Source: Escherichia coli
GTDB lineage: Bacteria; Pseudomonadota; Gammaproteobacteria; Enterobacterales; Enterobacteriaceae
Length of the DNA stretch: 64,000 nucleotides
Reading direction: 5' to 3' (one strand)
Assembly (NCBI RefSeq): GCF_003991155.1
Contig: NZ_CP031293.1
Under the pieces are notes generated by a model. The model made no database searches. It had not been told where the DNA came from and saw only the letters and a list, made by a program, of their open reading frames with translations. Every line of letters begins with the position of its first letter. The stretch's first letter is position 1. Shown here piece after piece: positions 52,788 through 57,121 of this stretch. Made by a program: the position numbers and the translations under genes.

Positions 52788-53010
52788 GGGGGAATAATCA
52801 GGTAAGAAAAGGTGCGCGGAGATTACCGTGTGTTGCGATATATTTTTTAGTTTCGCGTGGCAATACATCAGTAGCAATAAAACGACATATCCAGAAAAAT
52901 ATACACTAAGTGAATGATATCTTCCGATTTATCTTAATCGTTTATGGATAACGGCAAAGGGCTTCGTTTTTTCCTATACTTATTCAGCACTCACAAATAA
53001 AGGAACGCCA

Positions 53011-53094
53011 ATGAAAATTATACTCTGGGCTGTATTGATTATTTTCCTGATTGGGCTACTGGTGGTGACTGGCGTATTTAAGATGATATTTTAA
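53011..53094 (+). CDS. yohP: Small membrane protein YohP (27 aa)
   Basis: Found by eye: MKIILWAVLIIFLIGLLVVTGVFKMIF with AAGGAA upstream. Confidence 0.8.
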   Translation: MKIILWAVLIIFLIGLLVVTGVFKMIF

Positions 53095-54560
53095 AATTAA
53101 TTAATGTCATCAGGTCCGAAAATAACGAGAATAGTTCAGTCTCTCATCCTGTTGCGCTCCTGTCATGTGCATTGCTTCATATCATCACTGGCGCAAGGAG
53201 CGCGCAGGGGGCGGCCAGTCGCCGTCGCCCCCTGCACCCCCGGGCTCTGGCGAACAAAATCGCCGCTGCGCGGTACCCTCGGCTTATCCCTTGCTGCTAC
53301 CGGGTCGGGCGCGAGGTAACATATATGGACGCTCCCGGAATGCAATGCTTTCTTCAGTTATGTAATAAAACGGGTAGGTGCAGCCATATATCCGGTTTCT
53401 GATGGGATTTTTATCCCGAACCATGATGAAATCCGCCAGGCAGGTACCAATCATCCTCTACGGGCTAACTTGCCCTTGTTACCTCTCGGTGTATCCTGCC
53501 TGCGGTCTTACCTGTTTTGCCATCTTCTGAAGTCACCTGCACCTCCCAGGACGTTAACTTTTTTTCAGCACCTCGTCAGATTGACTGACCTTGTGTCAGG
53601 CGAGCTGCCGAGGTTGATATTCAGTATTGTGTGACAACATTGACCACATGATCCTCGCTGTTTTTGCCGCCATGGCGACAACAGCTACATTGTAGTGCTT
53701 CCGCTCAAGGAGTCCCTGAAGCCAGGAATTCTCCTCAACCGCGCCGTTTCGGTTGACCCAGGCGGTAAGTGCGCGTGCGCCGTGAACCAGCAGGTATCGG
53801 AAATATCCATCTCCACGTTTGCTGATCCCTCCCAGTTGCTGTTTCCCGCCGCTGGAATGTTCCTTTGGTGTCAGCCCCAGCCATGAAGCGAACTGCTTTG
53901 CGGTACTGAATTGTCGGGCATTACCCACTGCTGCTACCACATAAGTGGCCGTTAGCATGCCAACCCCCGGGATCTTGGCCATTCTCTGGCAGGCTTCCTG
54001 CGTTCTATACCAGGAGGCCAGAGCTTCTTCTACCTGTTTAACTTGTTCTTCAAGTTCCCGGATATGTTTAGACTGTCTGTAGATGCTGGTTCTGACAAAG
54101 GGAGATAAACCATTTTCGCCATCCTCCAGAATGGCTGGCAGCTCACGTGTTAAATGGCTTTGTCCGGCCGCAATCGTAATACCAAACTCAGCAAGTGTGG
54201 CTCTTAAACTATTGGCACAGGCAATCCGCTCACGGATAAGTATTCCCCGTTCAGTGTGTAACGCTAAAACGGCCTGCTGCTCTTCGGTTTTTATCTGAAC
54301 AAAACGCATATTCGGACGGGTTACCGCTTCGCAGATTGCTTCAGCATCTGCTGCATCCGTCTTGTTCGTTTTCACATAAGGCTTCACATACTGCGGAGGT
54401 ATGAGTTTTACCTCATGACCATAGCGGGTGAATAATCGCGCAAAATAATGACTGGATGAGCAGGCTTCCATGCCAATCAGACAAGGTTCCAGTTGAATCA
54501 CAAACTGAACAAACTTAGCCCGGGTGAGCTTTTTACGCAAAATAGTATGGCCTTCATGAT

Positions 54561-55810
<1,250 letters not shown>

Positions 55811-56221
55811 CCACTACAGATCGACACCATGAAGCTGAAAAACGTTCTTTGCCAGGTCGATACCAAGAGTTGATACTTTCATGTGGACGCTCCTAATTTT
55901 TCAGGACGTATTGCAACGATCCAGTCTGGTACTTTGATACCGTAAAATCTGGAGCGTCCATCTCATTATCCCTGTAAAACGCGCCCTCAGCCCACATCCA
56001 TGTGGGCTGCCCCGCCCTTCAGGGAACGCCTCGGCGATTTTGACGCCACCAACACCGGTGCGGTTTGTAATTAAAGCGCAAGAACATCTTTAAATGAAAA
56101 CGAATACTCTACTGCTCCTTATGCATAACATTTCCTTTTAATTGCAACTTTACTCGTCCTTCCGCTTTCAGTAGTGTGTCATCGCGCATTTCGACTTCAT
56201 CTTTGCAAGGACTGGGTTTTC

Positions 56222-57121
56222 ATGTTTTCTGGGCTGTTAATCATTCTGGTTCCCCTGATTGTGGGTTACCTCATTCCGCTTCGCCAAAAAGCTGCATTAA
56301 GAGTTATTAATCAGCTATTAAGCTGGATGGTTTACCTTATTCTCTTTTTTATGGGTATCAGTCTGGCGTTTCTCGATAACCTCGCCAGTAACCTGTTGGC
56401 GATTCTGCATTATTCTGCTGTCAGTATTACCGTTATTTTACTGTGTAATATTGCCGCCCTGATGTGGCTGGAGCGCGGCCTGCCATGGCGCAACCACCAT
56501 CATCAAGAAAAACTCCCGTCGCGTATTGCGATGGCGCTGGAGTCGCTAAAACTGTGCGGCGTAGTAGTGATTGGTTTTGCCATTGGCCTGAGTGGACTGG
56601 CTTTCTTACAACATGCGACCGAAGCCAGTGAATACACCTTAATTCTGCTACTTTTCCTCGTCGGTATTCAGTTGCGCAATAATGGCATGACCTTAAAGCA
56701 GATTGTCCTTAATCGCCGGGGAATGATTGTCGCCGTGGTGGTGGTTGCCAGTTCATTAATTGGTGGTTTAATTAACGCCTTTATTCTTGATCTTCCCATC
56801 AATACCGCGCTGGCAATGGCCTCCGGTTTCGGCTGGTATTCTCTTTCCGGTATTTTATTGACCGAATCTTTTGGTCCGGTAATCGGGAGCGCGGCGTTTT
56901 TTAATGATCTGGCCCGTGAGCTGATTGCTATTATGTTGATCCCTGGGCTGATTCGCCGTAGCCGCTCGACTGCACTGGGCTTATGTGGTGCGACGTCGAT
57001 GGATTTCACCCTGCCCGTTCTTCAACGTACTGGCGGGCTGGATATGGTCCCGGCGGCGATTGTTCACGGTTTTATTCTTAGCCTGTTAGTGCCGATCCTC
57101 ATCGCCTTTTTCTCTGCATAA
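56222..57121 (+). CDS. lysO: Lysine exporter LysO (YbjE)
   Basis: Start trimmed to MFSGLLIILVPLIVGYLIPL, 299 aa, multi-pass membrane protein. Confidence 0.9.
   Translation: MFSGLLIILVPLIVGYLIPLRQKAALRVINQLLSWMVYLILFFMGISLAFLDNLASNLLAILHYSAVSITVILLCNIAALMWLERGLPWRNHHHQEKLPSRIAMALESLKLCGVVVIGFAIGLSGLAFLQHATEASEYTLILLLFLVGIQLRNNGMTLKQIVLNRRGMIVAVVVVASSLIGGLINAFILDLPINTALAMASGFGWYSLSGILLTESFGPVIGSAAFFNDLARELIAIMLIPGLIRRSRSTALGLCGATSMDFTLPVLQRTGGLDMVPAAIVHGFILSLLVPILIAFFSA

What the first reader, a model, noticed from the sequence alone, without database searches (positions are those of the whole stretch)
55883..56060. Structured non-coding end of the IS110-family element, a possible bridge-RNA locus
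Directly upstream of the transposase start there are two perfect 10-bp inverted repeats: tggacgctcc / ggagcgtcca (55884-55893 and 55951-55960), which brackets the region next to the start codon, and cagcccacat / atgtgggctg (55987-56008). IS110-family elements are known to encode a structured guide RNA in a non-coding end that pairs with target and donor DNA. Because the recombinase gene is disrupted, any such RNA here would be an orphan.
Basis: partly seen in the sequence, partly recalled or inferred. Interest (0 to 1): 0.5.

Follow-up and report, generated by a model that had tools for sequence, protein, structure and literature searches.

The report
ISEc81 left end, not guide RNA
The flagged stretch is half the short left end of a known insertion sequence (ISEc81), where a conserved hairpin buries the transposase ribosome-binding site, and half host DNA; the element's real guide RNA lies 2.4 kb away, downstream of the transposase gene.

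Summary
Both inverted repeats are real, but they belong to two different things, and neither is a bridge RNA.

- **The element.** It lies on the minus strand at 53323-55967. It is ISEc81, an IS1111-group member, and its transposase is split by an IS3-family insertion.
- **Boundary.** K-12 empty sites place the left boundary at 55967/55968.
- **Repeat 1 (55884-55893 / 55951-55960).** This is the left subterminal inverted repeat pairing with a third copy that contains the Shine-Dalgarno GGAG.
  - It closes a three-helix 5'-UTR structure.
  - About 20 relatives (40-53% protein identity) keep this structure, with compensatory changes.
  - It is best read as a translational operator.
- **Repeat 2 (55988-56009).** This is host DNA: hairpin 1 of a TwoAYGGAY-like repeat, which is the element's insertion target.
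- **The true guide RNA.** The seekRNA/bridge-RNA homologue sits at 53379-53530 (minus strand), downstream of the transposase.
  - A covariance model built without this sequence finds it at 104.8 bits.
  - The same model finds published ISEc11 at 123 bits.
  - The loop carries GAGGUAACA, the exact complement of the right flank.

The finding is ordinary overall. Two modest observations may be new: the conserved left-end motif and the choice of target.

The parts
53323..55967 (-). ISEc81 (IS1111 group) copy, 1384 bp once the IS3-family insert and one copy of its target duplication are removed
   Evidence: Boundaries come from K-12 empty sites. Intact copies 100% identical over the first 296 nt, spanning the rejoined site, occur among the ~177 E. 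coli genomes that hold the element. The transposase matches ISfinder ISEc81 at 337/341 residues.
55883..55967 (-). Left end, i.e. the 85-nt 5' UTR of the transposase. It holds helix P1 enclosing hairpins P2 and P3.
   Evidence: MFE -30.2 kcal/mol, z = -4.2. Almost all of 22 relatives give the same architecture in their own MFE folds.
55950..55960 (-). Left subterminal inverted repeat ATGGACGCTCC.
55884..55893 (-). 3' arm of P1, GGAGCGTCCA. It is a third, right-end-like copy of the repeat and contains the Shine-Dalgarno GGAG (55890-55893), 1 nt before the start codon region.
   Evidence: The SD is predicted to be more than 99% paired.
55928..55941 (-). P2 hairpin GGTAT-CAAA-GTACC. Relatives conserve it as GGCAU-nnnn-GUGCC.
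   Evidence: 99% of cells are paired and 2 pairs show double changes.
55904..55922 (-). P3 hairpin, variable in sequence among relatives
55819..55882 (-). Transposase start codon (55880-55882) and codons 1-21, cut off from the rest of the gene
54561..55818 (+). IS3-family insertion sequence that splits the transposase gene. Its 3-bp duplication 'gat' lies at 54558-54560 and 55819-55821.
   Evidence: RefSeq annotation 'IS3 family transposase, programmed frameshift'. Rfam isrC hit at 54629-54751.
53596..54560 (-). Remainder of the ISEc81 transposase gene (codons 22-341)
53379..53530 (-). The element's real guide RNA: a homologue of the IS1111-family seekRNA / bridge RNA in the downstream non-coding region
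   Evidence: Leave-out model R2 scores 104.8 bits, E = 1.7e-23. The consensus structure has 34 pairs, 22 of them with double changes. R2 also hits annotated ISEc11, IS5708, IS4321 and IS5075.
53434..53504 (-). Target-binding stem-loop of the guide RNA. The 5' loop side GAGGUAACA lies at 53477-53485. The 3' loop side GGAUG lies at 53452-53456.
   Evidence: GAGGTAACA is the exact reverse complement of the right flank T|GTTACCTC. The same loop positions match each relative's own flanks and the published ISEc11 target.
53325..53335 (-). Right subterminal inverted repeat GGAGCGTCCAT. The -35-like TTGCAT lies just upstream of it.
55968..56056 (-). Host DNA: left part of a TwoAYGGAY-like repeat, which is the insertion target.
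   Evidence: The sequence is present without any IS in K-12. It matches RF01731 at 30.9 bits, below the gathering score of 43, over the full-length model. The Citrobacter copy carries three compensatory changes.
53258..53322 (-). Host DNA: right part of the same kind of repeat, here from the yohP locus. It holds the 3' half of hairpin 2.

Best explanation
The interval is a composite of element DNA and host DNA.

**(1) 55883-55967 is the 85-nt left end and 5' UTR of ISEc81, an IS1111-group insertion sequence on the minus strand.**
- The first inverted repeat is the left subterminal repeat (UGGACGCUCC) pairing with a third, right-end-like copy (GGAGCGUCCA).
- That third copy contains the Shine-Dalgarno sequence and ends 1 nt before the AUG region.
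- In the mRNA this pairing (P1) closes a three-helix structure (P1 around hairpins P2 and P3) that buries the ribosome-binding site.
- The most likely function is to hold transposase translation low, whatever promoter makes the transcript.

**(2) 55968-56060 is host DNA.**
- The second inverted repeat is hairpin 1 (loop AUGGAU) of a TwoAYGGAY-like repeat.
- The element has inserted into the apex of that repeat's second hairpin.

**(3) The RNA that guides this element lies elsewhere.**
- It is the roughly 150-nt structured RNA at 53379-53530 (minus strand), downstream of the transposase gene.
- Its internal loop carries the complement of the right flank on its 5' side and a short match to the left flank on its 3' side.

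**Shown versus inferred.**
- Shown: the boundaries, the identity as ISEc81, conservation and covariation of both structures, guide-flank matching, and predicted SD pairing.
- Inferred: that P1 actually represses translation, that the RNAs are made, and the junction promoter.
For: **Boundaries.**
- K-12 and about 5,400 other genomes carry 56230-55968 and 53322-53050 without the IS.

**Identity.**
- The rejoined 341-aa transposase is 99% identical to ISEc81.
- It carries the motif WLGLTPKEHSSGG.
- The element has 11-bp subterminal repeats, an 85-nt left end and a 273-nt right end.

**P1-P2 structure.**
- MFE z = -4.2.
- Almost all of 22 relatives fold on their own into P1 enclosing P2 and P3, with GGAG in the 3' arm 1-4 nt from the ATG.
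- In a fixed ungapped register, 90.7% of cells pair against 81.4% in shuffles (0/500). Eight pairs and 33 cells show double changes, and slid controls give 30-50%.
- Cognate arms pair at 8.2 of 9 positions against 6.8 of 9 for non-cognate arms (0/20,000 permutations).
- In relatives with long left ends, the P1 arms vary (GGACCC, GGATCC, GGACTC) while the terminal repeats stay constant. This argues for a nucleic-acid structure rather than a shared protein site.
- ISEc11 and IS5075 have P1 too.
- The SD is predicted to be more than 99% paired for transcripts starting at element positions 1, 8 or 10.
- There is an experimental precedent in the IS110 family: the ISPpu9 5'-UTR structure includes the RBS, and weakening it raises translation (PMC8450116).

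**Guide RNA elsewhere.**
- Leave-out model R2 scores 104.8 bits at 53379-53530 and finds nothing in the flagged interval.
- On alignment A6, 97.1% of cells pair and 22 pairs show double changes.
- Loop sides match each element's own flanks: the mean longest match is 7.1 against 3.4 nt for the right flank, and 5.7 against 3.1 nt for the left flank.
- In ISEc11 the same loop positions carry the published target GTGAAAATACTG.

**Host hairpin.**
- TwoAYGGAY alignment and compensatory changes in Citrobacter.
Against: - No expression or translation data exist for ISEc81. SD sequestration is a thermodynamic prediction.
- P2 is far more conserved in sequence (ACGGCAUC...GUGCC) than a passive SD mask needs. 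This hints at a bound factor.
- A transcript from the predicted junction promoter would still contain most of P1. The structure therefore does not obviously discriminate read-through from genuine transcripts, and it is unclear how translation is ever allowed.
- The helix-only alignment A4 was registered by me, anchored at the outer TGG, so pair counts lean somewhat towards the structure.
- Some relatives (L013, L031, L043) have weak P1 pairing.
- The left-flank guide match in ISEc81 is only 4-5 nt.
- The TwoAYGGAY match is below Rfam's gathering score.
Confidence: 0.62

Rival explanations
1. One reading: the interval encodes an IS110-type bridge RNA in the left non-coding end, with loops that pair with target and donor DNA.
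For: - The left end is strongly structured and conserved.
- IS110-group elements such as IS621 do encode the bridge RNA upstream of the recombinase (PMC11208160).
Against: - The element belongs to the IS1111 group, whose guide lies downstream.
- Only 85 nt of the interval are element DNA, and the rest is host DNA.
- The left end shares only TTTTAC with the target.
- The family covariance model hits 53379-53530 and not this interval.
- The variable, flank-matching loops are in the downstream RNA.
Confidence: 0.03
2. P1-P2-P3 is not a passive mask but a protein- or RNP-binding RNA. The P1 duplex is made of a left-end-like arm and a right-end-like arm, so it mimics the paired IS ends. The transposase, alone or with the guide RNA, would bind it to autoregulate its own translation or to assemble on its own mRNA.
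For: - The P1 arms resemble the two ends. Compare the J3+P1 3' arm CAGGCAAACCGGAGGGTCCGAGAT with right ends such as TTGGCAAACGGGAGGCGTCCATAT.
- The sequence of P2 and its flanks is nearly invariant across relatives at 40% protein identity.
- The SD is buried in every predicted transcript form, so some opener seems to be needed.
Against: - There are no binding data.
- The published ISEc11 small-RNA sequencing, as described, reports only RNAs derived from the downstream non-coding region.
- IS4321 and IS5075 keep P1 but lack P2.
Confidence: 0.2
3. The feature works at the DNA level. The third repeat copy next to the ATG would be a transposase binding site or an alternative internal right end. 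This would be analogous to the internal A'/B' boxes that give ISPpu9 its modular circles. The apparent covariation would then reflect co-evolving protein sites.
For: - There are three copies of the 10-bp motif in the element.
- ISPpu9 uses internal end-like boxes (PMC12288879).
Against: - In relatives with long left ends, the P1 arms differ from the terminal repeats and vary between close relatives while the terminal repeats do not.
- P2 also covaries.
- The sequence following the internal copy (ATGAAAGTA) does not match the guide's right-flank specificity.
Confidence: 0.1
4. P1 is a 5'-terminal stabiliser hairpin for the junction-promoter transcript. It would protect that transcript from 5'-end-dependent decay, as the ompA 5' stem-loop does.
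For: The predicted junction promoter TTGCAT-16-TATAAT would start transcription at about element positions 9-11, at the foot of P1 (my reading of the sequence).
Against: - In most relatives P1 lies 50-120 nt inside the left end, not at the 5' terminus.
- The invariant feature is inclusion of the SD.
Confidence: 0.05

Closest known systems
ISEc81 (ISfinder entry; IS1111 group of the IS110 family)
   Same: The transposase is 337/341 identical to the ISEc81 sequence in the ISfinder-derived FASTA of PMC11187229. The element has subterminal repeats, a short left end and a long right end.
   Different: This copy is inactivated by an IS3-family insertion after codon 21. It also has chimeric flanks, with the lysO-side left flank and the yohP-side right flank.
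ISEc11 seekRNA (Siddiquee et al. 2024, PMC11187229) and the IS1111-type bridge RNA (Durrant et al. 2024, PMC11208160)
   Same: - The RNA at 53379-53530 is found by the same covariance model as annotated ISEc11 (123 bits).
- It lies downstream of tnp.
- The top-strand match lies 5' of the bottom-strand match.
- The matches sit in the two sides of one internal loop.
   Different: - This RNA is not in the flagged interval.
- The transposases are only 43% identical.
- The guides differ.
- The ISEc81 left-flank match is short (4-5 nt).
- The RNA itself has not been tested experimentally.
ISPpu9 tnp 5'-UTR secondary structure (Gomez-Garcia et al. 2021, PMC8450116), and, from my own knowledge, IS10/IS50 fold-back inhibition of transposase translation
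   Same: A 5'-UTR helix that includes the ribosome-binding site of an IS transposase mRNA and keeps translation low.
   Different: - The ISPpu9 UTR is 244 nt, belongs to the IS110 group and is opened by an antisense RNA.
- Here the UTR is 85 nt and one arm is the subterminal inverted repeat itself.
- No antisense RNA is shown here. There is only a promoter-like site at chance frequency.
TwoAYGGAY RNA motif (Rfam RF01731; Weinberg et al. 2010, PMC2864571)
   Same: The host repeat aligns over the full 168-position model as two adjacent hairpins, and hairpin 1 has the loop AUGGAU.
   Different: - It scores 30.9 bits, below the gathering score of 43.
- The second loop is AGGGAU, not AYGGAY.
- Many outer-stem pairs are non-canonical in the alignment.

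Membership tests
IS110-group bridge RNA encoded in the left end (IS621 type) | Element of the IS110 group: long left non-coding end and no long subterminal inverted repeats | tested here: not met
   The left end is 85 nt and the right end 273 nt. The subterminal repeats are 11 bp: ATGGACGCTCC / GGAGCGTCCAT.
IS110-group bridge RNA encoded in the left end (IS621 type) | [quoted passage not shown] | tested here: not met
   Between the left end and the target the only shared word of 6 nt or more is TTTTAC.
IS110-group bridge RNA encoded in the left end (IS621 type) | Match to a covariance model of the family's guide RNA | tested here: not met
   Rfam 15 gives no relevant hit and apparently holds no such family. 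Family model R2 gives only negative-bit noise in 55700-56300 with filters off.
IS1111-family seekRNA / bridge RNA (downstream non-coding region) | Encoded downstream of the transposase gene, inside the element | tested here: met
   The hit lies at 53379-53530 (-), 66 nt after the stop codon.
IS1111-family seekRNA / bridge RNA (downstream non-coding region) | Conserved secondary structure supported by covariation | tested here: met
   34 pairs, 22 of them with changes on both sides. 97.1% of cells pair against 82.9% in shuffles (0/500), and slid controls give 30-46%.
IS1111-family seekRNA / bridge RNA (downstream non-coding region) | [quoted passage not shown] | tested here: met
   - Top-strand match: GAGGUAACA, 9 nt, exact.
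- Bottom-strand match: only GGAU(G), 4-5 nt.
- Across 11 relatives, cognate matches exceed non-cognate ones for both sides.
IS1111-family seekRNA / bridge RNA (downstream non-coding region) | Homology to an experimentally defined seekRNA | tested here: met
   The same model hits annotated ISEc11 at 123.1 bits. The published target sits in the same loop positions.
IS1111-family seekRNA / bridge RNA (downstream non-coding region) | RNA is produced, binds the transposase and is required for transposition | not testable with these tools
   This needs small-RNA sequencing, co-purification and transposition assays.
IS1111 group of the IS110 family (ISEc81) | DEDD transposase of 330-350 aa with the GL-P----S(T)G motif | tested here: met
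   341 aa, with WLGLTPKEHSSGG. 99% identical to ISEc81.
IS1111 group of the IS110 family (ISEc81) | Subterminal inverted repeats with short terminal extensions, and specific insertion without a real target duplication | tested here: met
   The extensions are 6 nt on the left and 2 nt on the right. Only an ambiguous AT is shared at both junctions. The same site is used in E. coli, Kluyvera and Citrobacter.
IS1111 group of the IS110 family (ISEc81) | Promoter assembled at the circle junction | tested here: inconclusive
   Joining the ends on paper gives TTGCAT-16 nt-TATAAT. A -35-like CTTGC is conserved before the right repeat in relatives. No circle or transcript was observed.
RBS-sequestering 5'-UTR structure of an IS transposase mRNA | A stable helix that includes the Shine-Dalgarno sequence | tested here: met
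   The P1 3' arm is GGAGCGUCCA. The SD has an unpaired probability below 1%. The feature is conserved with covariation.
RBS-sequestering 5'-UTR structure of an IS transposase mRNA | Weakening the helix raises translation and compensatory changes restore repression | not testable with these tools
   This needs reporter fusions.
TwoAYGGAY RNA (RF01731), for the host hairpin | Score at or above Rfam's gathering threshold (43 bits) | tested here: not met
   30.9 and 30.6 bits for the two K-12 copies. E = 0.0037-0.04, and the model aligns over its full length.
TwoAYGGAY RNA (RF01731), for the host hairpin | Two adjacent hairpins, each with an AYGGAY terminal loop | tested here: inconclusive
   Hairpin 1 has the loop AUGGAU, which fits. 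Hairpin 2 has AGGGAU, which does not. Kluyvera and Citrobacter have AGGGAU in hairpin 1 as well.

The most novel reading that the evidence does not exclude
The left-end P1-P2-P3 element may be a conserved cis-acting RNA of IS1111-family elements. I could not find it described in Rfam or in the searchable literature.

Its closing helix is built from one left-end-like arm and one right-end-like arm, so it mimics the synapsed IS ends. On this reading the transposase or the transposase-guide RNP binds it. That would couple transposase translation to the state of the RNP, or would provide a second RNA component for end recognition in a group whose donor recognition is still unclear.
Probability: 0.12. 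Interest if true: 0.65.

Novelty: new member of a known kind. Interest (0 to 1): 0.28.

Why it matters
**For the scan.** This corrects a plausible-looking lead.
- In IS1111-group elements the guide RNA must be sought downstream of the transposase, not next to its start codon.
- Element boundaries should be fixed from empty sites before hairpins are interpreted.

**For biology.** The result is mostly ordinary: a catalogued IS, a known class of guide RNA, and a known type of translational control. Two by-products could be useful.
- **A conserved left-end motif.** A covarying 5'-UTR motif (P1 with the SD, and P2 as GGCAU-loop-GUGCC) is shared by IS1111-family elements from several phyla. It could be turned into an RNA family and tested as a regulator when these recombinases are used as tools.
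- **A structured target.** ISEc81 targets the apex of a hairpin in a TwoAYGGAY-like host repeat. This adds another structured repeat to the list of IS1111 targets and gives that orphan motif a handle.

Tried and rejected
- **Rfam scan of 53000-57000 at E <= 10.** It found no guide-RNA family and only isrC inside the IS3-family element. I rejected this as evidence either way, because Rfam 15 seems to hold no IS110 or IS1111 guide family and it also misses the real guide RNA.
- **Plain MAFFT alignment of the left ends (A3).** It put the P1 arms out of register and was not used for counting. N-padded sequences were re-gapped by MAFFT. I therefore used an equal-length, helix-only alignment (A4) and an independent permutation test.
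- **L027 (Citrobacter braakii) and L038 as ISEc11.** I first took them to be ISEc11. L027 is only about 75% identical in DNA to the E. coli relatives, and the L038 transposase is 92% identical to TnpEc11 with different flanks. An annotated ISEc11 copy (L039) was then used instead.
- **Fold-back discrimination, as in IS10.** The idea was that P1 blocks only read-through transcripts. I rejected it as the main idea because the predicted junction-promoter start keeps most of P1, and in relatives P1 is internal.
- **Promoter and terminator scan.** Counts were at chance level, so it was used only as a lead.
- **Older papers.** Prosseda 2006 and Partridge & Hall 2003 are not held. I could not check whether the third repeat copy was noted there.
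- **Reciprocal junction.** I did not locate the other junction of the inferred lysO-yohP rearrangement.

Full report
**What is in the sequence**

The two inverted repeats exist.
- Repeat 1 is TGGACGCTCC at 55884-55893 and GGAGCGTCCA at 55951-55960. The arms extend to 17 nt at 88% complementarity.
- Repeat 2 is CAGCCCACAT at 55988-55997 and ATGTGGGCTG at 56000-56009, one base off the stated coordinates.
- A perfect 10-bp inverted repeat with a loop of 80 nt or less occurs in 0.6% of shuffles of the 178-nt interval.

The transposase reads on the minus strand from ATG at 55882-55880. After codon 21 it is interrupted by an IS3-family element at 54561-55818, which carries a 3-bp 'gat' duplication. 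It then resumes at 54560 and ends at 53596. Removing the insert gives a 341-aa ORF. The rejoined DNA is 100% identical to intact copies in E. coli genomes, and about 177 genomes hold the element.

**Where the element ends**

- A query running from the transposase start into lysO matches about 5,400 E. coli genomes, K-12 included, only over 56230-55968.
- A query from the other side matches them only over 53322-53050.
- Both K-12 empty sites read ...GCGCGTTTTACAGGGATGTTACCTCGCGCC....

The element is therefore 53323-55967, or 1384 bp after reconstruction. It has an 85-nt left non-coding end and a 273-nt right non-coding end. Everything from 55968 to 56060, repeat 2 included, is host DNA.

**What the element is**

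- It has 11-bp subterminal inverted repeats: ATGGACGCTCC, 6 nt from the left tip, and GGAGCGTCCAT, 2 nt from the right tip.
- A third copy, GGAGCGTCCA, lies directly before the ATG.
- The transposase carries the GL-P----SG motif (WLGLTPKEHSSGG).
- It is 337/341 identical to the ISEc81 transposase in the ISfinder-derived FASTA that accompanies Siddiquee et al. 2024. It is 43% identical to TnpEc11.

These are the hallmarks of the IS1111 group. Both Siddiquee et al. (PMC11187229) and Durrant et al. (PMC11208160) report that this group's guide RNA lies in the long non-coding region downstream of the transposase, not upstream.

**Where the guide RNA is**

A scan of representative genomes gave 34 related loci.
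- Kluyvera and Citrobacter copies at 96-97% identity sit in the same host repeat.
- Relatives at 40-53% identity come from many phyla.
- Their downstream regions share a core of about 150 nt. RNAalifold gives it 34 consensus pairs, 20 of them with compensatory changes.

To avoid circularity I built model R2 from 17 relatives, without the window or the Kluyvera sequences.
- On that alignment 97.1% of cells pair against 82.9% in shuffles, 22 pairs show changes on both sides (0/500), and slid controls give 30-46%.
- R2 finds window 53379-53530 (-) at 104.8 bits, E = 1.7e-23, as the only hit in 64 kb.
- With filters off it gives only negative-bit noise in 55700-56300.
- The same model hits an annotated ISEc11 copy (123 bits), IS5708, IS4321 and IS5075, always just after the stop codon.

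The first domain is a stem closing an internal loop that is capped by a small hairpin.
- In ISEc81 the 5' loop side carries GAGGUAACA (53477-53485). This is the exact reverse complement of the right flank T|GTTACCTC, spanning the insertion point.
- The 3' side carries GGAU(G), which matches the left flank GGGAT|G.
- In eleven relatives the same columns match each element's own right flank and left flank. The mean longest match is 7.1 against 3.4 nt non-cognate for the right flank, and 5.7 against 3.1 nt for the left flank.
- In ISEc11 these columns hold CAGUAUUUU and CCGUGAAAAU, that is, the published target GTGAAAATACTG.

This is the seekRNA/bridge-RNA homologue. It is intact, and it sits downstream of a broken transposase gene.

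**What repeat 1 is**

The 88-nt left end folds at -30.2 kcal/mol, z = -4.2. Its parts are:
- P1: UGGACGCUCC with GGAGCGUCCA.
- P2: GGUAU-CAAA-GUACC.
- P3: a third, variable hairpin enclosed with P2 by P1.

The P1 3' arm contains the Shine-Dalgarno GGAG and ends one nucleotide before the AUG region.

*Conservation.*
- Almost all of 22 relatives, folded alone, give the same picture, with the 3' arm 1-4 nt from the ATG.
- In relatives with a short left end, the 5' arm is the terminal repeat itself.
- In relatives with a long left end, the 5' arm is an internal repeat-like copy. Its sequence differs from the terminal repeat and varies between close relatives (GGACCC/GGGUCC, GGAUCC/GGAUCC, GGACUC/GAGUCC) while the terminal repeats stay constant. 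This argues against simple co-evolution of protein-binding half-sites.

*Covariation.*
- In a fixed, ungapped register anchored at the outer TGG, cognate arms pair at 8.2 of 9 positions against 6.8 of 9 for non-cognate arms (0/20,000 permutations).
- On the helix-only alignment A4, 90.7% of cells pair against 81.4% in shuffles. Eight pairs and 33 cells show double changes (3/500 and 0/500 shuffles), and slid controls give 30-50%.
- P1 position 4 shows all four Watson-Crick combinations.
- ISEc11 and IS5075 also have P1.

*Accessibility.* The SD is predicted to be more than 99% paired in transcripts that start at element positions 1, 8 or 10.

*Precedent.* The closest experimental precedent is the ISPpu9 5' UTR, which folds over its RBS and whose weakening raises translation (PMC8450116).

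I therefore read repeat 1 as a translational operator. Three caveats apply:
- I registered the alignment myself.
- P2 is conserved in sequence beyond what a passive mask needs.
- Nothing shows how translation is ever released.

**What repeat 2 is**

- Both K-12 copies align over the whole Rfam TwoAYGGAY model (RF01731) at 30.9 and 30.6 bits. This is below the gathering score of 43, with E = 0.0037-0.04.
- Repeat 2 is the model's hairpin 1, GCCCAC-AUGGAU-GUGGGC.
- The Citrobacter copy keeps hairpin 1 through three double changes.
- ISEc81 is inserted in the apex of hairpin 2, at ...CAGGGAU|GUUACC... Membership of the family is not established, and the second loop is AGGGAU.

**Other points**

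- Joining the ends on paper gives TTGCAT-16 nt-TATAAT across the junction, in line with the junction promoters described for ISEc11. This is inferred, not observed.
- The left flank of this copy comes from the lysO locus and the right flank from the yohP locus. In K-12 these lie about 1.3 Mb apart, with their repeats in inverted orientation. This implies an inversion. ISEc81 joined to each of these two flanks is common in other genomes (93 and 174 genomes), so recombination between two copies is plausible. The reciprocal junction was not examined.

**Verdict**

- The bridge-RNA reading of this interval is not supported.
- The interval is the ordinary, but conserved and structured, 5' UTR of a catalogued IS1111-group element plus a host hairpin.
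- The guide RNA lies at 53379-53530.

Noticed in passing
window 53100-53322 and 55968-56060; L002 780-1000; L003 510-745: A host repeat of roughly 230 bp, with a median of 3 places per E. coli genome and also present in Kluyvera and Citrobacter. It aligns at full length, but below threshold (30.9 bits against 43), to Rfam TwoAYGGAY. ISEc81 inserts in the apex of its second hairpin.
   Followed up: partly
window 53013-53322 versus 55968-57121: The flanks of the element are chimeric: the left flank is the lysO/aqpZ locus and the right flank is the yohP/dusC locus. In K-12 these lie about 1.3 Mb apart with the repeats inverted. This implies an inversion between two repeat or IS copies, roughly symmetric about the terminus. 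The same junction is present in the complete genome NZ_CP029747.1.
   Followed up: partly
window 54561-55818: An IS3-family element, annotated with a programmed frameshift and flanked by a 3-bp 'gat' duplication, splits the ISEc81 transposase. Its 5' region gives a strong Rfam isrC hit (54629-54751, 145 bits).
   Followed up: no
window 53596-54609 (L001 5622-6635): RefSeq annotates the truncated transposase as a complete 337-aa 'IS110 family transposase' (WP_096427304.1). Its first 17 or so residues ([17 protein letters not shown]) are read from the end of the IS3-family element, so this is an annotation artefact.
   Followed up: yes
window 55849-55877, + strand: A promoter-like site (TTGCCA-17-GATACT) lies antisense to the first transposase codons and would start an RNA complementary to the 5' UTR. 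Its position recalls the ISPpu9 Asr9 promoter. However, such sites occur at chance frequency in this region (2 found, 2.4 expected).
   Followed up: no
L007 2795-2800 versus L004/L005 (Kluyvera genomosp. 3): One Kluyvera copy has the right junction CCATATAC|GTTACC instead of CCATATAT|GTTACC, while all left junctions read GGGAT|AATGAG. This single case hints at where strand exchange falls within the shared AT.
   Followed up: no
relatives L014-L019, L024-L028 (left ends); window 55884-55900: The sequence just before the ATG (for example CAGGCAAACCGGAGGGTCCGAGATG) resembles the element's own right terminus (TTGGCAAACGGGAGGCGTCCATAT). The 5' UTR therefore contains a left-end-like and a right-end-like copy facing each other.
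   Followed up: partly
window 53190-53230: A very GC-rich hairpin (GGGGGCGGCGGCGA-TTGG-CCGCCCCC in K-12) lies in the distal part of the host repeat. It gave only spurious microRNA-family hits in Rfam.
   Followed up: no
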